Positions 1-63,437 of a stretch of 64,000 bases of DNA are shown here, one piece after another. Position numbers and translations under genes: made by a program. The stretch lies in NCBI GenBank assembly GCA_951406725.2, contig OX597815.1, forward strand, positions 209,684,001 through 209,748,000, read 5' to 3'. The stretch is from Octopus vulgaris. Taxonomy: Eukaryota. Below the pieces are notes generated by a model that searched no databases, had not been told where the DNA came from, and saw nothing but the letters and a program-made list of their open reading frames with translations. The stretch's first letter is position 1; each line of letters starts with the position of its first letter.

Positions 1-1244
1 CTTAATGGCATTATAACTCTCTCCACGGAGAAAAGTAACACACTGGGACCTATTATATTACACTAAGACAGTATACAGAGATTAGCATTGGTGCACGTGG
101 ACCCGTGGGGCCCAATGTATCTTCATAGTATAATTATAACTTAGGATGGCATAAACCACTTCGATGTAACTACTTCCTGTAACACACACTGGATTAGATC
201 AAGCCATTACCCAAGCAAGTACGTCTCTGCAATTAGAATATATTTTCTGTATGATCATCATTATTTCTTCAAGAAACGTATTTATGAATGCATATGTGTG
301 CAAACGTGCTTTTATATACATTTGTATAAGTTGTGTAGTTTTAAATGTTTAAGCTTCTCTCTTCTGACATAAACAAATAAACAAATACAAATAATAATCA
401 TCTCCATTGAAATTATTCAAAAACTAAGAGTGTTTGCGTCAAGGTATTTCAAAATGTTGAAATAGTGATTCTCAAAGATTTTTCTTTGATTAGAATTCTT
501 TAAACAATCATTTTACCCGAGATCTTCAGAACAATTTTTACTGGCTAGACTGCATTTAGCTTTGTCAATAACTGAAGTAGGGCTTCTTTAAACTATAGAC
601 TGTTTTTATTGCCCTCTTGAGCTTCTATGCTTGGCTGCAGCGTGCTTCCGACCGTTTCCCCGCTTAGGCCTATCAAATATAATTAGTTTCTTTTTGCTGT
701 TCAGTTTAGCTTTGTTTTCCAAATGTTAGAAATTTTCGAATTAGGTTAGGGAAGAATAACAAACGAAACACCAAGAAAAAAAAGCAAAAACAAAACGAAA
801 CAGAAAATTAGAAAGAAACATCAATATATAAAAATTTAAAAACTAAAAATGAATAAAGCAAATGAATTGAAGAAGAATAAAATAATGGCATACAGAGAAA
901 CACAAAGCGAACCGACAATGACAACGAAAATAAATTCACTAAACAAAACAAACGCTTGTTGGATCTTAGACAGAAGAGAAGAGAAAGGAAAGGAGAGAAG
1001 TTAATGGTAATGGATATAAAGAATTTGCAGGGTTTCATTGCATGTTGAATGTCACGTGGAAGATTAAAGTGTGTACTGACAATCTGTACAAGATGGACAC
1101 TGTGTTTTTTGTTGTTGTCACATTAACTGATGTCTCCACTACGACGGACGGACAACTGTTCCCCCACCTCGTTCCGGCAATGCCCTCTTCACATACAGGC
1201 ATTTCAAACATCAGCAGAAACAGTAGCATCATCATCATCCCCGT

Positions 1245-1481
1245 CACCAGCACCAGCACCACCACCACCACCATCGCCACCACCATCGCAACCACCACCA
1301 CCACCATCGCCACCACCACCACCACCACCACCGCCACCACCACCACCACCACCACCACCACCACCACCACCACCACCACCACCACCACCACCACCACCAC
1401 CACCACCACCACCACCACCACCACCACCACCACCACCACCACCGCCACCACCGCCACCACCACCACCACCACCACCACCAC
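1245..1481. repeat. (ACC)n trinucleotide microsatellite
   Basis: Long near-perfect ACC run; source of the poly-T/P/V/W ORFs. Confidence 0.97.
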
Positions 1482-1529
1482 GATGAGGTTATCATCATTA
1501 CCTCACTCCAGGTTCGACCAATGTTGATA

Positions 1530-1762
1530 CTACCACTAGACTCCATCACTACTACTACTACCACCACTACTACTACCACTGCAACCACCACTACTACCAC
1601 CAGCACCACCACCACTACTACCACCACCACTACCACCACTACTACCACCACCACCACTACCACCACCACCACCACCACTACTACTACTACCACCACTACC
1701 ACACCACCACCACCACCACCACCACCACTACTACTACCACCACATACACCACCACCACCACC

Positions 1763-1812
<50 letters not shown>

Positions 1813-1845
1813 CACTACTGCTGCTGCCGCTGCCATCTCCACCAT
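1530..1845. repeat. Mixed (ACC)n/(ACT)n microsatellite
   Basis: Interspersed ACC and ACT triplets. Confidence 0.95.
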
Positions 1846-2473
1846 CACATCCAAATTCACTTTTTTAACAAATCACTGTATTGTGAGGCAATGGTAATCT
1901 TACTGTATTATCTTTGTATTATTATTACCCTCAACTAACATGTAAGCTGTTAGCAATAGTTGCCAAAATCTTCCTCAGACCAATTCCTAGCTTATTTGGA
2001 AGTACAGAATACATCGCCATAAGATGGCTTGGCTCTTGCTGGAATATCTTTAACCTTAGAGTTTACTCGATGAAGTAACAGCGACTACCACCACCTCCGT
2101 AATTACTACCCACCATTAATGCTTCCTCCATCACAACTGGGGAGTTCTTTGTAGTAGTTCGACTTGCTAGAAGTGGCAGGCAAATCTCCTTCAAATATAC
2201 CTTGCTGCCTGTAAAAAATGCAAGTTAAGGAAAACGATGGCATTGCTCATGGTTGGAGTACCTTTGATCGTGTGTCTGATAGTTCGGAGTTGATTTGATG
2301 TTACCACCACTACCACATACCACCACCACCACCACCACCATCTACTACTACCACGTAACGTTATCTCGATCACTGTTGCTGCAACCATTTCAATCACCAT
2401 TACTAGCAACGCACCTACGACTATGACTACTACTACACTACTACTACTACTACTACTACTACTACACTAGTTT

Positions 2474-2698
2474 GACAAGGCTGGCCCATTCAAATACAGG
2501 TACAACAGAAACAGGAAGAAAGAGTGAGAGAAAGCTGTGGTGAAAGAGTACAGCAGGGTTCACCAGCCCCTGTCGGAGATTCGTGGATCTTTAGGTTGTT
2601 TTCGCCCAATAAACACTCACAATGCCCGGTCTGGGAATCGAAACTGAGATCCTACGACCACGAGTCCACTGCTCTAACCACTGGGTCATTGTGTCTCC
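2474..2698 (-). mobile_element. tRNA-derived SINE, family B
   Basis: Reverse complement has tRNA-like head (CCCAGTGGTTAG...TTCGATTCCC); body matches copies at 24973, 37993 and 52962. Confidence 0.85.
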
Positions 2699-3433
2699 AC
2701 GTCTTACTAAGTACTGTTCGTATAAATTACCTTACCATTTGGTAACTTTTACTGGTAGGAAAAGTAGTTAAAATTTCTCCAAAACACACGTCATTGTCAT
2801 AGAAAAACGCATATTGAGTAATAACGGGATGGTCACGGTTGGAAAAGCTTTGATTATAAATCTACTCGTCCACAATAGAGCCGGAGTTAAACAGCTGCAA
2901 CAGAAAAAATTATTCACTGCCTCTAACGTGAGCATCAAACTTATGACGGCCAAAACCACTATGACCAAAACGAAAACCACATGCGCCAAAACTAAATAAT
3001 TTTTGCACAAGACCAGTAATTCATTGCTACTTTATTTTACCGACATCATAAAGACAAAAGGTAAAGTTGATCTCAGCAATGATTGCAGCAGCAATGATCG
3101 AGTTGGTGGTATGTTGGAGTAGATGTTGTTGTTATTGTTGTTAACGACAAATCAGCTCCGAACGATCGTAAAGTGTAGTAACAAACACCGCAAGGCATTG
3201 TGTTGTTGCCCGACGCTCACGCGATTCTTGTTATTCTCTACCATCTAATAGCATGATGATAAAACATCTCATCTATTTCATAGGTTACTCCTGTACCAAA
3301 GTAACCACTGTAACAAGTAGAAGAATAAGATAACCAATAAAAGAACTTTTGCTTAACCTACAAGAAATAGTAATTAAATTTCCTTTAATTCACAATAACC
3401 GCATAAGATAACGATAAAAATTTAAATTACGGA

Positions 3434-3718
3434 GATGTACTTGCATAGCAAGTGACCTGATCTGAGATCGTGTGCTGGAATGAAAACAATTGCGGTGTGG
3501 AAGGTGTTTATAAGTCATTTAAGAAACACTCAAAATCCGTTAGACTCACTTCAACAGTTAAATTTAATTTGTCAAAATATTTTCGTCGCTTTGAGACCGT
3601 GACCTGTTCACTGACAAAATTCCGATGCAGCATGGAATTTTGTCAGTGAACAGGTCGCGGTCTCAAAGCGACGAAAATATTTTGACAAATTACATTTAAA
3701 TGTTGAAGTGAATCTAAC
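3434..3718. mobile_element. Fold-back element with ~85-bp inverted arms; Penelope-like terminus candidate
   Basis: Arms 3539-3623 and 3634-3718 are near-perfect reverse complements; a decayed relative lies at 33552-33751. Confidence 0.7.
3639..3689 (+). ncRNA. Minimal type I hammerhead ribozyme-like fold, G3-C8 core variant
   Basis: tttgtca-GTGAACA-g-GTCGC(ggtctcaaa)GCGAC-GAA-AATATT-T-tgacaaa: 7-bp stem I, 5-bp stem II, palindromic stem III. Confidence 0.6.
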
Positions 3719-4320
3719 AATAATTAGAAATAAACGCAAAAATGTTCTAGATGTATTATGTCTGAAAGTACATGGTTTTTGTCATGTTGGTAACATCTTT
3801 GTTACGGGTCTACCGTTTGTGGGCTAAACCATGCCTTAAAACAACAATAAACTCTGATTCTATCTGTTAGAAACAACTTCAACATTTCTCTCGAGTCACA
3901 CATTTCATTTAAAATAAACTAGAGGAGGATTACATAATGTAATCCTAGATATACCAAATCTGAAATATATATATATGGCTAACTCATCAATACAATGTCT
4001 TTTGACTGCAAAGCCAGTAGCCAAACAGCGACAATAATACTTTGATTTAGCATTAACAAATAGAAAGCAAATCTCTTTCGATTCTCACTACTCCGTTTAG
4101 ATATATAAAAGACATTATATTAAATAATGTATTCCAAGATATTATATGTCTGGTAAATACATGGGTTGCTCATTGCTACAACGTATTTCACCAGGAGCCA
4201 ACTTTTGAGAGATAAACTGGGGCTAAACAAGAAACACGAACGTCGATGCAACATCGGTAACAGATTGCACACCAAAGCTGCAGGTATTGACAGAGCTCTT
4301 TCCACTTCACTTCCAAATTT

Positions 4321-5125
4321 GGTTTGCCCAAGCGTTCGTTTCTGCGCTTCGCTCCCTTCTTTTTATATATTAATGATGTACTTCACGTCACAATCAACAA
4401 CCTGTAATCTTACGCAGATAGCACAACTATCATTTCGCCTTAACATTCCCTAACAATGCATCATCCACACGCAATCTAGACACTGCACGCCAAACCTGCA
4501 TTAATTTCAGAAATGTAGAGAGAGACCTTCAGAACATTCTCCAGTGGAGTCATACCAACCTTGTTTCTTTTAACAACAAATAAATAAATAAACACCCTCA
4601 AATGCTCCTCATATCATGAAAACGCCACCGCATTACAGCCATTCTAAACATGAACGACAAACAGCAAAAGTCTAAGGGTCGCTGAAAATGATGGGTTAAC
4701 TTCTCGTGAAAGTAGATCCTTATTATAGCTAACAAGGCACCAATACTACCACTGCTATTTAGAGTTGGAAGAATTTCATTTTTCACAATTGGGACGATGC
4801 CGTTACTGCTCCAAATGACTTTCCAGATCCTAGCCAGAGAATGGCTACTCAACTGAGTAGCACTCGATCACTAATGGATACATTCCTGCCTCTGACTCAC
4901 AGGCATGCTGTATCCGCTCTCTTTGTCTTTCCCATCGCTAAAAGAACGGACTTAAAGTGGAATGGTCGGTGACATGTTTATGAAGATTACATTTTCACTC
5001 CTTCATAAACATGTCACAGATAGTTCCATTTTACTTCCTTCATAAATATGTTGCAGATCATTCCATTTTAACTTCTTCAATTATAACGGACTCAGATCCT
5101 CGAAGCTGGTTAGTCTCCTGCCACT
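4321..5125 (+). mobile_element. Decayed LINE reverse transcriptase fragment (CR1/L2/Jockey-like)
   Basis: GLPKRSFLRFAPFFLYINDV...SYADSTT resembles GVPQGS..LF.LYINDL..YADD; also RDLQNILQWSHTNLVSFN and LPLTHRHAVSAL; stops and frameshifts present. Confidence 0.75.
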
Positions 5126-5334
5126 AGTACTGACCCACCAGGAGTAAGGGTGGAATTCAAAGAAATGCCACCAGTAGTGGATTTAATAGAAATTGAACCA
5201 TTGATGAAGTACTACTAAAAAGAAAATAAGTATGTTTAATTGACAGGAAAAAAAGAAAAGAAAAAAGAAAAAAAGAAAGAGCCAGGTGTTTTATGTTATG
5301 TTTCTTTAAAAAAAAATATTGAAAAATAGAAGAA

Positions 5335-5601
5335 CTAATTGTAGATAATGTATATAACGGTTCAAATCCTTGCAATGGTATGTAACATGATAATTAATTG
5401 TTAAGTAAATACAAGATAAAAATGGACTGAAAAAAGGATTAATGGTTCTGCATGTGATGAGGGGCGCATGCAGCCATTCATAACCTCATTGTTATATGAT
5501 CATCTCATTCATATTCGTTTTATGTATTGTCCTCTCTGTGGTGTCCTGTCTGTCCTTGTTTGTCCCCCGCTATTTTGGGCCCTTGTGGCTAATAAAGAAA
5601 C
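5335..5601 (+). mobile_element. Probable LINE 3' end sharing its tail with SINE family A
   Basis: Ends tgtctgtccttgtttgtcccc...ccttgtggctaataaagaaa like SINE-A tail i but has no SINE head; 5' boundary approximate; inverted partial copy at 6418-6480. Confidence 0.55.
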
Positions 5602-6183
5602 ATAGTTTCCTGCCTCTACCACTCAGGTAAACTGTCTCACTCCTCTTTCCGTCTCACGGCATCCTTGATGCATCCAACCTCTCACTTTTTCATTACTTAT
5701 CATTTTGCCCAATCCTTCACCGACATGATATCGACCCGTTATGTTTCCTGTAGGTGTGTACCTACAAAGAACATCAATGATATCGGTGTTACCAGTTTCG
5801 GAGGGTCTGCAAAGGTCATGAGTTTTGCGCCTCCGTCCAGACTCAGAAATTAGACAAAACAACAGCAACCATAGTAACAACAACAATAACAGCAGCAATG
5901 TAAAGCAACAAGTGAAACCTTGCACAGTTTAGAAAATACGACATATCACCCCAGTTCTTCACATTACACTGCGTACGATTAACAAGCACATATAATTCTG
6001 CACTCAGGGACAGACAGGATACATTTGTATGCAGTGTTCTGTGTGTGTGATCAAGTGCATGTGCATTTATGTGAATGAGTACGTTTGTATATGTGTGCCT
6101 AAACACACACACACACACACACATATACATAGACACACAAACACATGCGTGGGCGCACACACGCATATATATGTATATATATA

Positions 6184-6417
6184 TCATCATCATCGTTTAG
6201 CGTCCGCTTTCCATGCTAGCATGGGTTGGATGGTTCAACTGGGGTCTGGGAAGCCAGAAGGCTGCACCAGGCTCCGGTCTTATCTGGCAATGTTTCTACG
6301 GCTGGATGCCCTTCCTAACGCCAACCACTCCGTGAGTGTAGTGGGTGCTTTTTACGTGCCACCGGCACAGGTGCCAGACGAATCTGGCAACGGCCACGAA
6401 CGGATGGTGCTTTTTAC
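6184..6417 (-). mobile_element. Retroposon 3' portion (SINE/LINE tail ending in (ATG)n)
   Basis: Reverse complement contains GTTGGCGTTAGGAAGGGCATCCAGCCGTAG and ends ...GCATGGAAAGCGGACGCTAAACGATGATGATG. Confidence 0.7.
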
Positions 6418-6539
6418 GAGGGGGACAAACAAGGACAGACAGGACACCACAGAGAGGACAATACATAAAACGAATATGAATATATATATATTTATACGTT
6501 AAATTAATAAATACATATATATTATAATTTTCATATTAA

Positions 6540-6875
6540 GGGAGCAAGGGCGAAAACAAAACGACCTATCTCCAACATGCTTGAATGCCGAGGCATTTAG
6601 ATACTACTGTAAAACTCCAAAAATATACTTCGATTGTAGGCGAGCGAGTGAACAAAACATTAAAAAGACTTCACGTTGATTGCGAAATGAGTTCAATTCT
6701 AGATTAAAGCCGTAAAACAGCTTTTTTCCTTCATTAATACAAAACCTGTCTCCAATATGCTTGAACGACGACTTATTCAGATACTACCGAAGAACTCCAA
6801 AAACTATACACGGATTGTATGACTGCCTCGGCATTCAAGCATTTTGGAGATAGGTCGTTTTTCGCCATTGCTCCC
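6540..6875. mobile_element. MITE with ~55-bp TIRs flanked by TTAA (Kolobok-like termini)
   Basis: TIRs 6540-6595 and 6824-6875 (GGGAGCAA...TTGCTCCC); TTAA at 6536-6539 and 6876-6879; internal direct copy of the subterminal sequence near 6745-6820. Confidence 0.8.
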
Positions 6876-7874
6876 TTAATATAATTATATACACATATAT
6901 ATATAATTATCAATGTAATGGATATATTACCTATAAATTTTTATTTTGTGCCGACTACCTGATAAAAATCATTAACATGAATTTATCCTTATATTCTAGC
7001 ATAAATTGATAAATAAAATAAAATTAATGAATAAAATAAAATAAAACAATATTATTATTTTTACTCCTGATCGGAAAAGCATCTGAATATCTTTTAAGTA
7101 GCAACATCGAATTATAAAGACAAAATAAAAAGAAACATAATAGAAAAGGTAGCTTGAGGATGGTCATAGCTTGAACATTTTTGATAGAACATCAGCTCTA
7201 TCAGGGATAACCTGGGGCGAAAAATGGCATTGACTCTACCATAATGACAAGAACATACCCTTATATTCATTACATATATGAGTGTAGATATATGTACTTG
7301 TATTTGTGTGTGTGAGTGTATCATAGACGTGTCTTCTGGGTAAGCAATGTAGGCAATGCCTGTCCTTCTGATGAAAAGTAAACATTTTAATTACAAAATC
7401 CCACTCCACAAAGAAACAATTTTTAATAGTTTTATGAAAATGCTAATCTGTTGTGGGAACTTCAATGTATTATTCAGTAAATGTCAGCCTTTTCCATTTT
7501 TATACGGACACAATATCCGTCGCTTTTCAAGAGCGTTGTTTAAATAAACATCGCATAAAGCTAAGAGTTTAGCTCTAGAACACAAAATTGATTGAAAACT
7601 TATTGAAAATGTAGGAACATAATTTAAAGTGTTTGCACTACGAGGTGAATTCAAGATGTGTGGAGGTTTTTCAGGAGGGACATTTATCAATTTCAAAGAA
7701 GTACATAATTCTAATCTGACTTCAATGCGCTTGTTGTAGTACTCAAAGTACATCATGAATACCCCATGGAAGTCCTCCAGATTGAACATATACTTGACTC
7801 TTGTCAAAACCTCCTTCATTTTCTCAATATCTTCAAAGCAACTGTCTTAGGGTATAACTAAATTTCACAGGGAG

Positions 7875-7985
7875 CAACGGCAGATATGACGTCATCGTCA
7901 CAGCAATACTGGTTCTCAGCAAAGAGATTTTTCATGTTGGAGAACACATGATAGTCAGATGGGGTCAAATCAGGAGAATTCATAT
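7875..7985 (-). mobile_element. Mariner transposase C-terminal fragment
   Basis: Translates NSPDLTPSDYHVFSNMK...DDDVISAV, matching the YSPDLAPSD motif. Confidence 0.75.
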
Positions 7986-8004
7986 TCAGTTAATATTAAG
8001 AAGT

Positions 8005-8505
8005 GGAGGCGCGCGGCTTAGAGGTTAGGGTGTCAGCATCGTGATCGTAAGATTGTGGTTTCGAAAGGCGGAGAGCTGGCAGAAACGTTAGGACGCCGGG
8101 CGAACTGCTTATCAGATTATCGTCTGTCTTTACGTTCTGAGTTTAAATTTCGCCGAGGTCAACTTTGCCTTTCATCCTTTCGGGGTTGATAAACTAAGTA
8201 CTAGTTACGCACTGGGGTTGATGTAATCGACGTAATTCCTTTGTCTGTCCTTGTTTGTCTCCTCTATGTTTAGCCCCTCATGGGCAATAAAGAAATAAGA
8301 TTGTGGTTTCGATTCCTGGACCGGGCGACGCGTTGTGTTCTTGAGCAAAACACTTCATTTCACGTAACGCTGCGATGAGTAACGCTGAGTAACGATGAGT
8401 AACGCTGCAATGGACTGGCGTCCGGTCCAGCTGGGGAACACATACGCCATTGAAACCAGGAAACCGGGCCCATGAGCCTGGCTAGGCTTTAAAAGGGCGC
8501 ATTTG
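8005..8505 (+). mobile_element. SINE family B interrupted by a SINE-A insertion
   Basis: tRNA head 8005-8064 resumes after 8312; CORE-like ttgagcaaaacacttcatttcac; 3' part gactggcgtcc...ggctttaaaagggcgc. Confidence 0.85.
8065..8295 (+). mobile_element. SINE family A (tail i), nested
   Basis: Full head and body; 17-bp TSD taagattgtggtttcga at 8048-8064 and 8296-8312. Confidence 0.92.
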
Positions 8506-8628
8506 TTTTTTTATTTTAATATTAAGAAACAATAATTCTAAGAGGCATGTGTAAGTATAAAATAGTAATAATTATACAAATGACTACAAACACATACATA
8601 AATACATACACACATGTATACATACCTG

Positions 8629-8739
<111 letters not shown>

Positions 8740-10225
8740 CATGAGTGGCAGTTTCTTAGTGTGGCACACCATCAAGTGGCTATGTAACTCTGTGTATGAA
8801 GATAAAGGGCTTTATTTTCGTGACTGCGCTTAGTGTTTTATTGTGAGAATTTGTCCGCACTATCTGATCCCATTCTTTAGATAGGATGTGTGGCCACTCC
8901 GGGTAAACAGGTTAAATAGATAGATAAACTGATAAAAAGATAAGATACCTACATGCATATATGCATAAATTTATCATCCATTCCAGTATATGTCTATATA
9001 TACGTATAACTGAAATAAATTGGTTGTATTTGCGATTGAAACAAATTCGCATAACTGGCAGCTAATCTATAACACAACAATGCTCGGCGCTGCTAATTAT
9101 TTATCCGATCTTACCAGTTTAATGAAATTTGCTCACCTTTCATATTAGCAAATGCTCCAGTCCCGACCAACTCTTTCGCCACGCTGCATTCTTTTGACTA
9201 CCGTCTCCATGAATATATATAATATGATTGGCATCTAGTTCTATTCCAGAAAAGTTTGAGAAGCTGAGCAACCATAGCAATTTATTCATTCACAAATTAA
9301 TATCTTAAATAATTAAATTATATATTTTTATACTTTATGAAAATTTATTTTTGCTTTTCAATTCCATTTGTATTATATTATTTTTTCATGTAATATATTT
9401 TCCTTCATATTACTTTTTTTATGTATCATATTTTCCTTCGTATTATTTTTATTGCAAACTGTATCCTTTTACAGCTTTACTTCACTAAACCATCTCTTGT
9501 GGCATACGATGCAATCTTACCTTCGTCAAAAAGAAGAAAAAAATAAATAAGAAAACAAGCTCACAACAACAAAAGACATGAACTATCAATAAGTATAACT
9601 CATATTACTTCGAATTACAGGACATAGCTTATTGGTACGAAGAAAACATTAAATTTCTTTTAATGGGGTTCATAAAATTGGAGGCAATGAGGAATACACA
9701 TCTCATTTTTTCCCCTCCTGACAATCTTTCCCTTTTCCCTTTATTACATTATTGATTTCTCAATCCGGCAGAAAACCACAAATTTATAGAGTAATGGGAA
9801 ACATGATATTGTCATAAAATGCCTTCAATTAGGACTAGAAACACAGTCGATGTCACTGGTAAGGGACTCAACTCTACCCTACGATATTATCTTCATTATT
9901 ACTATAACCTCCAATTTATCATCTTCAAGTTAGACTTGGTTGTCTTGACCTACGGCCAAAGACGTTCCAGCCATGATCATTACATTATTTATTCAGACAG
10001 TCAATGTAGGATCACACTATCCAAGAGTCAGTCTAATCTCTTTGAAGACAATAGGGTTTTATATAAACAAGTATTTGGCTGCTATTTCAAATATGAAAAT
10101 CATCTAGACACGGGCTTCTCCATAGAAGGACGTTATATTAATTATACCCTTTTCCTGATATATACCAGTGAACCTAAGTCAGAAACTCTTATTTATATTA
10201 TTATCACTGTCATTTGACGTTTCGG

Positions 10226-10448
10226 AAGGTGGAGAGCTGGCATGGTCGTTACCACGCCCAATAAAATGCTTAGCGGCATTTCGTCCGTCTCTACGGCCTG
10301 AGTTCAATTTCCGCTTAGGTCGACTTTGCCTTTCATCCTTTCGGGGTCGATAAATATAAGTACCAGTTGAGCACAGGGGTTGATGTAATCGATTTAACCC
10401 ACTCCCTTGAAATTGTTGGCCTTCTGCCAAAATTTGAAACCATTATTA
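10226..10448 (+). mobile_element. SINE family A (tail ii-like)
   Basis: Central gtcgactttgcctttcatcctttcggggtcgataaa plus head. Confidence 0.85.
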
Positions 10449-10505
10449 GATGTTCGGATAAAAATATCCTACACATTCATGCGCTGACATAAATGCGCAT
10501 TTATT

Positions 10506-10525
10506 CACACACACCAACACACACG

Positions 10526-10615
<90 letters not shown>

Positions 10616-10622
10616 CACACAC
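10506..10622. repeat. (CA)n microsatellite
   Basis: Direct. Confidence 0.97.
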
Positions 10623-11297
10623 TTTTTTCTATTTAACTCACGGGAGAAATAGAATAAGAACCAGTCTTGTTCCGGTATTAATGTAAATCCTGTATATATA
10701 ACACTGCGCCGATTGAATTGGCAAACAAGTGATGATTTAAGTAACTTTAAGTGCATAGCTTCGTATCCCCTGGTTCGTGTAGATGCACTAATCTTTGAAC
10801 TTATGTAGTAACCATATAACCACATCAGAATACACACAACATATCAGCACTTCATTTAATGTTCTGCATATATATTTCCTAGTTTAATAAATTATTCTTT
10901 AGAGTACTTAATTTAAGTAAATGGGGATCATTGAGTTGCATATTAAGAGAACATTGACACATTTTATTGTGCTAATAATGGCAAGATACAAAGTTAAGCT
11001 TCCTCCAAAAGAGAATACAATTAACTGCAACGATTGCATTGCATATGTTGTCTTAATTCCCTGTGGTAAAAGGGCTCTTCAAATGAAATAAGCATCCAAG
11101 AACCGCACACTTAATTCCCGGTAAAATTGCTACACTTCGTTGCCTCTTATAACTTGTGATTTCTAAGTGGATATTCTTTAACTACCTGATACGTTTACCT
11201 ACTCTGAACATATTACACGAAGGCAGTCTTCTCATTCATCAATTCAACACTGACCTCAAAACTTGTAATTTTGATAGGTACGCTATTAGTCCTATGT

Positions 11298-12224
11298 AGC
11301 GGCGAGCTGGCAGAAACGTTAGCACACCGGGCGAAATGCTTAGTGATATTTCATCTGCCGTTACGTTCAGAGTTCAAATTCCGACGAAGTCGACTTTGCC
11401 TTTCATCCTTTCGGGGTCGATAAATTAAATACCAGTTACCCGCTGGAGTCGATGTAATCGACTTAATCCCCTTGTCTGTCCTTGTTTGTCCCCTCTATGT
11501 TTAGCCCCTTGTGGGCAATAAAGAAATAAGAATCGTTAGTACACTGGAAGGCGGCGAGCTAGCAGAACCGTTAGTATACAGGACGGAATGCTTAGCGGTA
11601 TTTCGCCCGTCGCTACGCTCTGAGTTCAAATTCCGCCGAGGTCGACTTTGCCTTTCATCCTTTCGGGGTCGATTAAATAAGTACCAGTAGAGTACTGGGG
11701 TCGATATAATCGACTTAACCCCTCCCCCAAATTTCAGGCCTTGTGCCTATAATAGAAATGATTATTATGATATGTCTATAAGGCGGCGAGCTGGTAGAAC
11801 CGTTAGCATACAGGACAGAATGCTTGGCGGTATTTCGCCTGACGCTACGTTCTGAGTTCTAATTCCGCCGAGGTCGACTTTGCCATTCATCCTTTCGGAG
11901 TCGATAAGTTAAGTAGCAGTAGAGTACAGGGGTCGATACAATCGACTTAACCACCCACCAAATTTCAGGCCTTGTGCCTATAGTAGAAAGGATTATTATG
12001 ATACCTCTATAAGGCGACGAGCTGGCACAATCGTTAGCGCGCAGGACGAAATGCTTAGCGGTATATCGCCTGTTACTACGTTCTGAGTTCAAATTCCGTG
12101 GAGGTCGACCTACATTTCATCCTTTCGGGGCCGATAAAATGAGTATCAGTTGAATACTGGGGTCGATGTACTCGACACATCCCCACCTCCCCTAAGCTAC
12201 TCTTGTGGCAAAAATTTGAAATAA
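11298..12224 (+). mobile_element. Head-to-tail array of four SINE-A copies
   Basis: Units start near 11298, 11548, 11780 and 12011; the last three are ~231 bp apart. Confidence 0.9.
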
Positions 12225-21608: not shown

Positions 21609-21696
<88 letters not shown>

Positions 21697-21710
21697 CTTA
21701 TATGTATATA

Positions 21711-21870
21711 TTTGTAAAGAATAAAAACGTTTTGAATGGTACATCAATGCACTATAATACAAACAATGGGCTATATACCTGTTGTAATTTAGTGATACAA
21801 CAGGTATATAGCCCATTGTTTGTATTATAGTGCATTGTAGTACCATTCAAAACTTTTTATTCTTTACAAA
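21711..21870. repeat. Long inverted repeat (~75-bp arms, 9-nt spacer) beside (TA)n
   Basis: 21711-21786 versus 21796-21870, near-perfect reverse complements. Confidence 0.9.
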
Positions 21871-23574
21871 CGATACACAATGCTTCAAGCGAACTATAAT
21901 ACTCTCCTATATATATATATTCATATATGTATGTAACTATCTATAACACACACCTAATAGTGTGTACCCATGCACATTAATATATATATATATATTTATA
22001 TATATATGTACGTGTGTGTGTAGTTCATTGATGTATAACTGTCTGTTATGTCTTTCTGGAGTTTGTACTAATATTCCATCATTTCTATGTTGTTCGCATT
22101 TCGTAATTTGGTATTTGCATGTGCATATCATATGTCTAATTAGATATGTAGTAAGGGGTTTGAGGATTTTCTCCAATTCATGAGAGAAGCGTATTCATTC
22201 TCGCTAACATATTTATTCTTATATTTTAAGTTCTGCTTTTCTCTTTTGGGTTCTGAATTCGGATAAAGAAAGAATTAGAAATGAACACTAACATAAAGTG
22301 GAAAAATTTGAAACCAGCCACAGACCTTATGTCTAACCAAGTTAAGGAATCTTTACTCCGAAATGTTTAATAATTGTATCTAATTGTTCGAAAATTGCAA
22401 TGAAATGAAAATTAATTGCTTCAATTAAACTTGGAAAGTCTTGAGAATTCACAGAAAAACACTTTAGCGATTAATCAGACCAGTTCACTTGACCACATAT
22501 AATATACATAGAACGTTGGCACCTATGGCCAAAATTCTGCGGCCTTTGCTGATAGTAGACCTAATTGTAAACGTAATACAAATCAGAAGAGAAATTCATA
22601 GCAAGCTCAGTTTCTGCACTGTTCAAAGACATCATGTGCCATATGTGACGAACAGCTTTTGTCAGCGTTTGGAACCCTCTTTATCAGAATCTTCTTCAAC
22701 TCTGACGTATACGCAGTTGCAGCTATTGATCTGCAGGACAGGTGACAATTCAAGCATACCTCAACTTACGTAGGTAATTTGTTCCAACTGGAAAAATCAC
22801 GTAACACGTAAAAAGAAAATAAAAAAGAATTGATTAGCACATATCTGTCTTAATATTTTGTAATTATTTTCACTCGTATTTTAATTACTACATCAGTTTT
22901 GGTGTTTAGGTACTCTTAAAAAACCCCAAAACAAATGCTTTTAAATAAATTCCCTGAGACCAATGTAAAGACTGATAAATCGACAACAGTTGCGATTTGT
23001 TTTGTTCAATAATTTCTTTAGAAATCGACATAAAGTTGAAAAAGATGTAACTAGAGGCGACATAAACTGATGTATGTCTGTACTTTATGTCTTCACAGAA
23101 TTTTACACTAGACCACTCTATCAAACAGCAGTCAACATTGGTTGCTGTTACTAAAAGACATACTACGTTTTATTACATTCATGTATAATCGCTAACGATT
23201 TTCTGTTAAAATGTTGAGATGCATACAAAGAGCATTGTGTGGTTAAAATTTAATTTCATGCAAAAACCTGATTGCATTGCTTAATTTTTAGAGAAAATTT
23301 CATCAGAAAGCATTTCAGTTTATTACAGGAATAAATGGGAATATAGAATTCGCTTTAATAAAATACTACGTTTCGAGATATAAGGTGTTTATATATATAT
23401 ATATATATACAAAAAGCAATAAAGATTCAAGTTAATTTAAATGAATTTACTTGCACGCTCGCACACACAACTTACACACACACAACACAAACATGCATAT
23501 TCAAATGAGCATACAGGTGAGAAGAATGTGTATGTGAACGTATGTAAATATGTAAGGACACAAGAATGGATAGG

Positions 23575-33551: not shown

Positions 33552-33751
33552 ATAGATTCACTTCATAATTCAAATTTAATTTGCCAAAAGCGACGAAAAT
33601 TTTTTCTCAAATTAAATGAAATTTAAATGTCGAAGTGAATCTAACAGTTTTTGTGTGTGTTTTTAAATGACTTATAAACACTTACTGCGCTGCAATTGTT
33701 TTTGTTTCAGCACACGATCTCAGATCAGCTCACTTGCTATGCAAGTCCATC
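33552..33751. mobile_element. Internally deleted copy of the 3.4-3.7 kb fold-back family
   Basis: 33620-33751 is the reverse complement of about 3434-3565; a short inverted arm is retained. Confidence 0.8.
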
Positions 33752-58408: not shown

Positions 58409-58830
58409 CTGTAAATAATAATAATGGTACTTATATAAGCCTAAAGCTTACAGCAATCACCGTGCAATGATTATGGGGCATACAAGCCCTCGACAGAAAA
58501 AAAGTAGGCTTTCCTATCCGAGTGGTACTCGACCCACATCCCTTTGTTAACGCGATTAAGTGTGTCACCATTACACCAGCGAATAAGCCTCCCTGTTTGT
58601 GTGAAATTTAACAACTATATTAGTTCGTACTTCTTTTTGTAAACAAACTTTATATATGCTTTCGGCTTTGTTACACGGTGCCGGGTTCTACAGTCCTGTA
58701 AATAATAATAATAGTATTTTATATAAGCCTAAAGCTTACAGAGGTCACCATGCAATGACTAAGAAAAATAGTCTCTTGCAGGGTGATCGCTGTAAGCTTT
58801 AGGCTTATATAAAACCATTATTATTATACA
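58409..58830. mobile_element. Element with direct plus inverted ~65-bp terminal repeats enclosing a tRNA-like sequence
   Basis: Repeat at 58409-58473 and 58696-58761 (direct) and 58769-58830 (inverted); tRNA-like fold at 58514-58585 on the minus strand. Confidence 0.65.
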
Positions 58831-63144: not shown

Positions 63145-63437
63145 TATATTTTATTGTGCCTGAGTGAAGTCATTCACTTTTAGTGCCTTCTTATTAATTT
63201 AACACACTCACCGGTCCGATTTACACTCATTTACTTATTTATTTCTACTGAAATTTTCGTTGCGTCTTGCAACCTTTACAATAGTCGTTGACTCAACGAC
63301 TACTGAAATGGTTTGCCAGACGCAACGAAAATTTCAGTAGAAATAAATAAGTAAATGAGTGGAAATCGGACCGGTGAGTGTGTTAAATTAATTAGACACT
63401 AAAAGAGAATGACTCTCCCCAGATACAATAATATATA
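63145..63437. mobile_element. Palindromic element (~145-bp arms, 1-nt spacer) with decayed hammerhead-like folds
   Basis: Centre gtcgttga-c-tcaacgac at 63292; flanked by TA/TATG microsatellites. Confidence 0.75.

What the first reader, a model, noticed from the sequence alone, without database searches (positions are those of the whole stretch)
3539..3718. G3-C8 hammerhead variant duplicated in a 180-bp hairpin
The right arm folds cleanly: tttgtca/tgacaaa (7 bp), core GUGAACA, one extra G, GUCGC/GCGAC, GAA, palindrome AAUAUU, U17. The left arm carries the antisense mirror with one stem II mismatch. A double change of C3 and G8 to G and C is what selection for a working core predicts. Any read-through transcript would also form ~85 bp of dsRNA that would sequester the ribozyme.
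Basis: partly seen in the sequence, partly recalled or inferred. Interest (0 to 1): 0.75.

Follow-up and report, generated by a model that had tools for sequence, protein, structure and literature searches.

The report
Swapped-core hammerhead in Penelope-type mini-retroelement
The hairpin is two head-to-head copies of a 206-base jumping repeat with thousands of copies, likely pasted in by Penelope-type enzymes, and the repeat carries a predicted self-cutting "hammerhead" RNA whose key base pair is flipped and has stayed flipped across old and young subfamilies, although cutting itself is untested.

Summary
The hairpin is not the unit. It is the junction of a full 206-nt repeat (minus strand, 3428-3633) and an inverted, shortened copy (3624-3718). 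The family has over 6,000 core matches, fixed ends, target-site duplications and a ~56-nt tail on one arm only: the footprint of Penelope-like elements (PLEs). No reverse-transcriptase gene was found attached. G3-C8 is the family state. An older subfamily, about 20% diverged outside the ribozyme, keeps G3-C8 and the stems, swaps one stem I pair (G-C to T-A) and appears to have a shorter stem III palindrome, which points to selection on the fold. Against activity: RNA reads show no pile-up of ends at the cut, inserted copies derive from uncut RNA, and tandem copies needed for dimers are rare. RNA reads show A-to-G changes mainly in the part that pairs, so such hairpins are likely edited dsRNA. 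The copy at 33552-33751 lacks the core. This scan noted the G3-C8 family before on other DNA of this genome. Verdict: new variant of a known kind.

The parts
3428..3633 (-). Full unit of the repeat (unit positions 2-206), sense on the minus strand; fixed 3' end at 3428
   Evidence: 93.7% to solo copy L109 over 206 columns; end shared by family copies
3428..3483 (-). Tail (unit ~151-206), present on this arm only; likely the stretch between two reverse-transcription start sites
   Evidence: 58 of 76 inverted arms end at unit 143-154; tail as RT-start interval from PMC11167929; inference for this family
3429..3518 (-). 30-codon open frame running to the unit's 3' end; possible relic of a PLE ORF start, weak evidence
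   Evidence: no continuation found
3568..3618 (-). Hammerhead motif of the full arm; stem II mismatch at 3600; predicted cut 3' of 3575 on the minus strand
   Evidence: stem II pair probability about 0.4
3624..3633 (.). Head-to-head junction in the quasi-palindromic 5' leader, shared by both arms
   Evidence: junction read in both orientations among copies
3624..3718 (+). Inverted, shortened arm (unit 1-95); shorter than usual and without a clear target-site duplication, so likely trimmed after insertion
   Evidence: 96.8% to L109; longest duplication 5 nt
3639..3689 (+). Intact G3-C8 minimal type I hammerhead motif; predicted cut after 3682
   Evidence: stems I and II probability 0.87-1.0 when the arm is folded alone
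33553..33751 (+). Second, more decayed copy: unit 42-200 on + (33587-33751) with inverted 57-93 (33553-33589); lacks the core
   Evidence: 86.7% and 89.2% to L109

Best explanation
The hairpin is a head-to-head insertion of a 206-nt non-coding repeat that is likely a non-autonomous Penelope-like element (a stand-alone pseudo-LTR), and its G3-C8 hammerhead is predicted to be a slow, dimer- or protein-dependent self-cleaver that is folded away and likely inactive in this hairpin. Mechanism. Shown: fixed 5' start, fixed 3' end, target-site duplications, A/T-rich targets, solo and inverted forms, inverted arms ending ~56 nt short of the tail end, arms sharing source alleles. Inferred: a linear RNA starting at unit position 1 is copied in trans by a PLE reverse transcriptase/GIY-YIG protein that nicks both target strands; one nick primes at the tail end (206), the other at ~150; the two cDNAs run toward the RNA 5' end and join by microhomology, often in the quasi-palindromic leader. 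Inferred: the ribozyme is kept because it matters in the source elements (RNA processing with protein help), while insertion uses uncut RNA. Inferred: read-through of inverted copies gives dsRNA that ADAR edits.
For: Copy number: 6,272 exact matches to a 21-mer with positions 3, 7, 8 free, 0 for the reversed control; 94 of the first 100 listed read G3+C8. Architecture in 107 loci: 47 of 78 loci not chosen for the palindrome have an inverted arm; 58 of 76 inverted arms end at 143-154; 23 of 26 loci chosen on the ribozyme alone carry the tail; 21 of 31 solo copies start at position 1-2; duplications >=8 nt in 63 of 107 against 11% of shuffled pairings. In 9 of 47 pairs neither arm is a subset of the other (the short arm holds >20 nt the tail arm lacks). 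Arms of one insertion share alleles: 71 shared at subfamily sites against 15 permuted, 27 against 1.8 at other non-CpG sites, 68 pairs. The same layout (inverted pLTR, junction palindrome, tail, duplication) is described for PLEs (PMC3846280; PMC8557442); two RT starts, both-strand nicking at ATT and partial rescue by C3G/G8C are shown in vitro for an anole PLE (PMC11167929). Fold constraint: subfamily B rewrites loop II only within the ribozyme; the old subfamily majority keeps 18 of 18 stem positions not fixed by my search pattern against 25 of 125 changed outside (Fisher p=0.043), and has G-C for T-A at the sixth stem I pair (5' G 12 of 24, 3' C 15 of 23); 3 of the 4 old copies not picked by the pattern whose core could be read are G3-C8. 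Other minimal hammerheads in this genome have C3-G8 or U3-A8.
Against: No autonomous partner found: none in 50 GIY-YIG loci (150 of 6,136 candidates were scored) and no shared continuation among 156 tail ends beyond duplicated loci and other repeats. No pile-up of RNA read ends at the cut in two raw RNA runs. 0 of 31 solo copies and 2 of 94 paired arms start at the cut, positions 59-60. Head-to-tail junctions within 15 nt: 2 in the genome, so cis dimers are rare. Among genomic copies the core mutates at the same rate as the rest (2.2% vs 2.3%; mildly biased by how loci were chosen), so inserted copies are not under selection. The tail is ~56 nt, longer than the 30-40 bp in the papers. Asymmetric junctions could also come from later deletions. 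The old-subfamily sample is small, decayed and mostly picked by a core pattern; its stem III majority is uncertain (2 of 4 unselected copies read AATT).
Confidence: 0.78

Rival explanations
1. Same element, but the inverted arm is made by fold-back self-priming of one cDNA, and asymmetry comes from later deletions.
For: Self-priming at junction palindromes was proposed for PLEs (PMC3846280). Arms share alleles. Many junctions are symmetric in the leader, and three are symmetric at the AT palindrome near unit 51-57.
Against: 9 of 47 pairs have a short arm with >20 nt that the tail arm lacks, while only the tail arm has the tail; the junction loop occurs in both orientations.
Confidence: 0.2
2. 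The hammerhead is a dead relic: the stems persist for protein binding or by chance, and G3-C8 does not cut at a useful rate.
For: No RNA ends at the site; copies derive from uncut RNA; cleavage was dispensable for insertion in the anole PLE; the cut triplet is UUU and the extra base is G where the published consensus has H.
Against: Core, stems and a palindromic stem III are kept across subfamilies while loop II and flanks change; the 3-8 pair is Watson-Crick in all three hammerhead types seen here; C3G/G8C partly rescues activity.
Confidence: 0.3
3. It is a non-LTR retrozyme that spreads through circular RNA.
For: Short, non-coding, hammerhead-bearing, high copy; animal retrozymes are linked to PLE pLTRs (bioRxiv 10.64898/2026.07.22.740005).
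Against: Only 2 close head-to-tail junctions genome-wide; copies stop at a fixed 5' end 59 nt upstream of the cut, as expected for a linear template; arrays seen include flank DNA.
Confidence: 0.07
4. It is a MITE or foldback DNA transposon, and the hammerhead likeness is chance.
For: Long inverted repeat, no coding capacity, high copy number.
Against: 31 of 78 loci are solo; arms are unequal; duplications vary in length; 5' truncations are common; descriptor hit is above shuffles.
Confidence: 0.03

Closest known systems
Minimal type I hammerheads in pLTRs of metazoan Penelope-like elements (Cervera and de la Pena 2014, PMC4209133; read parts 1-3 of 4 and supplement passages)
   Same: Type I order, extra base after A9, G10.1-C11.1, short palindromic stem III, thousands of dispersed copies, pairs on opposite strands 100-700 bp apart, a natural 3-8 covariant (U3-A8).
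   Different: Core pair is G3-C8; extra base is G; stem I is 7 bp; no ORF found attached.
Poseidon PLE of Anolis, PAc (Frangieh et al. 2024, PMC11167929; read parts 1-2 of 4)
   Same: Two genomic 3' ends separated by a tail, A/T-rich targets, ribozyme near the 5' part, no RNA-seq ends at the cut.
   Different: PAc is autonomous and tandem with a canonical core; G3-C8 there is an engineered rescue; tail here ~56 nt.
Inverted pLTR insertions of Adineta vaga and other EN+ PLEs (PMC3846280, PMC8557442; passages)
   Same: Head-to-head inverted arm, junction palindrome, tail on one end, 8-10 bp duplications, pLTR acting in trans; non-autonomous derivatives are known (MRC1).
   Different: Here the whole mobile unit is the 206-nt pLTR-like piece with its own fixed 5' start.
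Animal non-LTR retrozymes (bioRxiv 10.64898/2026.07.22.740005, part 1 of 5; PMC7229834, search listing only)
   Same: Small, non-coding, hammerhead-bearing, PLE-related.
   Different: Not tandem; unit boundaries are not at the cut site; no sign of a circular template.
Short-stem-III hammerheads of Lunse, Weinberg and Breaker 2017 (not held; citation seen in PMC6765202, content recalled)
   Same: Small palindromic stem III, dimer cleavage, PLE association (as summarised in PMC6765202).
   Different: Whether their set holds G3-C8 cores could not be checked.

Membership tests
Minimal type I hammerhead of metazoan PLEs | Type I order with stems I and II | tested here: met
   7-bp stem I and 5-bp stem II; probabilities 0.87-1.0 for the arm alone
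Minimal type I hammerhead of metazoan PLEs | Canonical core CUGANGA | tested here: not met
   GUGANCA; 94 of first 100 listed are G3+C8; 0 of 14 double variants in the strict context are C3-G8; 3 decayed C3-G8 copies in a looser search
Minimal type I hammerhead of metazoan PLEs | Watson-Crick pair between positions 3 and 8 | tested here: met
   G3-C8 in young and old subfamilies
Minimal type I hammerhead of metazoan PLEs | Extra base after A9, G10.1-C11.1 pair, GAAA, palindrome, NUH | tested here: met
   All present; extra base is G where the supplement consensus has H; 89 of 136 arms keep all features
Minimal type I hammerhead of metazoan PLEs | Self-cleavage as a dimer or with protein | not testable with these tools
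   Dimer fold is predicted; no read-end pile-up in two RNA runs
EN+ Penelope-like element | Head-to-head inverted arm with junction palindrome | tested here: met
   47 of 78 loci; junctions
EN+ Penelope-like element | Tail on one end | tested here: met
   58 of 76 inverted arms end at 143-154; longer than the published 30-40 bp
EN+ Penelope-like element | Variable target-site duplication at A/T-rich or (TA)n sites | tested here: met
   >=8 nt in 63 of 107 against 11% control
EN+ Penelope-like element | RT plus GIY-YIG ORF between pLTRs | tested here: not met
   None attached in 50 GIY-YIG loci, 20 old-subfamily loci or 156 tail ends; search not exhaustive, so filed as working like a non-autonomous derivative, not as an autonomous member
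Non-LTR retrozyme | Tandem units each with a hammerhead | tested here: not met
   2 head-to-tail junctions within 15 nt genome-wide
Non-LTR retrozyme | Circular RNA | not testable with these tools
   No circle-enriched data; fixed 5' end argues for a linear template
MITE | Symmetric terminal inverted repeats with a fixed short duplication | tested here: not met
   Solo copies, unequal arms, variable duplications

The most novel reading that the evidence does not exclude
A stand-alone, SINE-like Penelope parasite of about 205 nt, amplified in at least two waves from a linear RNA, carries a naturally fixed and active G3-C8 hammerhead that standard descriptors miss; its insertions record two-ended priming from two RT start sites, and the resulting palindromes supply thousands of ADAR substrates to the host transcriptome, as inverted Alu pairs do in primates.
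Probability: 0.3. Interest if true: 0.65.

Novelty: new variant of a known kind. Interest (0 to 1): 0.42.

Why it matters
A natural, long-kept G3-C8 core would extend the known hammerhead covariation (C-G, U-A) to a pair so far seen by me only as an engineered partial rescue, and shows that CUGANGA-based searches and Rfam miss whole families. Thousands of short insertions with two 3' ends and unequal junctions give a natural test set for how Penelope elements make their inverted arms, a step still open. If the A-to-G signal holds, these insertions are a ready source of edited dsRNA. The element's layout itself is ordinary for Penelope-like elements.

Tried and rejected
Autonomous partner: Pfam GIY-YIG search and 50 loci gave other PLE families only; a peptide search with the 30-codon frame (150 of 14,813 candidates scored) and 20 loci fetched for longer frames or clusters gave low-complexity flanks; two tail patterns (30 loci each) gave no shared continuation; 7-8 kb arrays on C17 are segmental duplications carrying one copy passively. 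A supposed canonical-core sister family is coding DNA of another retroelement with no stem I: rejected. Three C3-G8 copies are about what double mutation would give (1-2 expected from the single rates); one has G3-C8 in its other arm: not an ancestral subfamily. A search for G3-C8 relatives keeping the AATAT motif with a different stem II gave decayed family members and chance hits. Rfam gave only microsatellite-driven miRNA-type hits. The run search listed no holder on record as RNA: 'no RNA holder listed'; evidence comes only from laying raw reads. Open frames in window 1-12000 are mostly low-complexity and none overlaps the element; host-gene context was not determined. Lunse 2017 and Hammann 2012 were not held; supplement file 1 of PMC4209133 was not searchable; these could hold natural G3-C8 examples. 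Arm-to-arm gene conversion was considered: shared variants are mostly ones that recur in other loci (23 of 27, against 159 of 224 unshared alleles), which fits inheritance from the source, but conversion is not excluded.

Full report
Observation. The inverted repeat at 3539-3718 is present (93.9% over 181 columns, -129.7 kcal/mol). The left arm is the mirror with one stem II mismatch at 3600. A relaxed descriptor finds this one site in the window and none in 40 shuffles at the observed stem lengths; at looser settings 5 to 8 of 40 shuffles hit. Rfam shows no hammerhead among 150 of 151 matches. The second window copy lacks the core.

The real unit. The window lies in a 2.8-Gb animal genome; an octopus is likely from its size, microsatellite load and earlier AI notes, which I did not verify. 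A DNA search gave 4,208 candidates, 40 scored. Alignment of 29 loci showed one fixed end at window 3428 and a variable other end. Copies chosen by the tail or by the ribozyme showed a 206-nt monomer, sense on the window's minus strand, with the hammerhead at unit 16-66. A 21-mer with positions 3, 7 and 8 free has 6,272 exact matches and none for the reversed control; 94 of the first 100 listed are G3+C8. So G3-C8 is inherited, not a change in this copy.

Insertion anatomy (107 loci, of which 29 were chosen with the palindrome as query, 52 by the tail and 26 by the ribozyme; duplicates and one array were dropped, and one likely duplicate pair, L157/L159, remains). Of the 78 not chosen for the palindrome, 47 have an inverted arm and 31 are solo. 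21 of 31 solo copies start at position 1-2. 58 of 76 inverted arms end at 143-154, about 56 nt short of the tail end. Duplications of 8 nt or more flank 63 of 107, against 11% of shuffled pairings; many targets are (TA)n. In 20 of 47 pairs the two 5' starts differ by more than 20 nt, and in 9 of them the short arm holds sequence the tail arm lacks. Arms of one insertion share alleles far above permutation (71 vs 15 at subfamily sites, 27 vs 1.8 elsewhere; 68 pairs).

How it likely works. These are the marks described for endonuclease-bearing PLEs: inverted pLTR, junction palindrome, one-sided tail, duplication (PMC3846280 and PMC8557442, passages). For the anole element PAc, both target strands are nicked at ATT, reverse transcription starts at two sites that bound the tail, the ribozyme needs protein, C3G/G8C partly rescues it, and cleavage is not needed for insertion (PMC11167929, parts 1-2 of 4). 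I infer that a PLE protein copies this 206-nt RNA in trans from both nicks, one from 206 and one from about 150, and that the cDNAs join by microhomology. Fold-back with later deletion is the main rival. No partner ORF was found, so the enzyme source is inferred. A circular retrozyme is unlikely: 2 close head-to-tail junctions in the genome and a fixed 5' end upstream of the cut.

Is the ribozyme under selection? Among inserted copies the core decays like the rest (2.2% vs 2.3%). Between source lineages the pattern differs. The main subfamily variant inside the stems is A62G, which keeps a U-G pair (30 of 133 arms). Subfamily B rewrites loop II and leaves stems and core unchanged. Two pattern searches, prompted by an earlier AI note, gave totals near their controls (9 vs 16; 278 vs 247), but the listed hits included a recurring motif; 20 of these loci were fetched and most are an older subfamily of the same unit, about 70% identical copy to copy. 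Its majority differs from the young unit at 25 of 125 scored positions outside the ribozyme and at 0 of 18 stem positions not fixed by the pattern (p=0.043), has G-C where the young family has T-A at the sixth stem I pair, a 6-8 nt loop II, C or T at position 7, and a 4-nt stretch in stem III (26 of 27 copies parsed). Of the copies not picked by the pattern, 3 of 4 with a readable core are G3-C8 and 2 of 4 read the palindrome AATT. The sample is small and decayed, so this is moderate support. In about 1 Mb of held DNA other minimal hammerheads have C3-G8 or U3-A8 cores.

RNA. No listed holder is on record as RNA, so two raw RNA runs of organism B were laid on solo copy L109. Each gave over 1,200 reads, in both directions about equally, with host flanks as loose ends and no place where many molecules begin or end. 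This fits read-through in host transcripts and gives no sign of cleavage, though ordinary libraries show ends poorly. In one search, 17 listed sites show A>G or T>C in the RNA reads at about 4-31% but at 1.3% or less in contigs of run X15 (organism A; type not on record, DNA-like by size) and, with one exception at 6.5%, about 1% or less in X16. 16 lie in the part that pairs in inverted copies (58 A/T sites) and 1 in the tail (29 sites), p=0.008; none has a 5' G neighbour. This is likely A-to-I editing, but there is no DNA of the same individual, the species labels differ, and 3 rows were hidden.

Comparison with print. Minimal PLE hammerheads, opposite-strand pairs and a U3-A8 variant are in PMC4209133 (parts 1-3 of 4 and supplement passages); natural U3-A8 is also in PMC3088659 (passages). 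G3-C8 appeared only as an engineered variant (PMC11167929; PMC3884650 and PMC8495972, passages). Searches for a natural case; for twin priming in PLEs; for PLE palindromes as editing substrates in cephalopods: (0 papers). These are full-text word searches of an open library; Lunse 2017 and Hammann 2012 were not held, so absence from print is not established. PMC6765202, PMC6155905, PMC13282606 and PMC6962438 were seen as passages and add context only.

Earlier notes. My PLE reading was set before the first look-up. Searches show that this scan already noted the G3-C8 family and similar head-to-head insertions on other DNA of this genome.

Verdict. Real motif, known class of element, unusual core pair with moderate evidence of constraint, activity unshown. 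New variant of a known kind; interest 0.42.

Noticed in passing
L086 (G000:C16:20835000-20842000), L087, L100 and many hits: A young PLE family with an intact 781-aa RT + GIY-YIG frame and a CxxC linker; several GIY-YIG loci carry a downstream minimal hammerhead with a U3-A8 core and ACATGT palindrome, and in some copies (L086, L100, L101, L091) its stem II looks degraded. No DNA similarity to the unit studied.
   Followed up: partly
L078 (G000:C27:32596000-32600000); L216/L217 (C27:31281435): Local tandem arrays holding the whole unit in direct orientation (about 426-bp period, 7 full copies, in L078). These are places where cis dimers could form.
   Followed up: partly
L197 (G000:C18:35457300-35458400): One insertion with G3-C8 in one arm and C3-G8 in the other; position 3 is the centre of a 7-nt palindrome, so a micro-inversion could flip it.
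   Followed up: no
L107, L188, L222: Three copies are followed by the same other repeat (about 84% alike), also seen as an RNA loose end; a target hot spot or a composite element.
   Followed up: no
L129: Insertion joined to a second partial unit at the A/T-rich stretch near unit 69, like homing into its own copy.
   Followed up: no
L070, L074, L156: Canonical C3-G8 minimal hammerheads with an ACGT palindrome, from other families.
   Followed up: no
window 63145-63437, 21645-21945, 58409-58827, 6473-6945, 43137-44622: Other inverted-repeat structures in the window, not related to this unit.
   Followed up: no
G000:C17:44.71-44.72 Mb and 68.4-69.3 Mb (L248-L252): Segmental duplications of 7-8 kb period that carry one palindromic copy of the unit.
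   Followed up: partly
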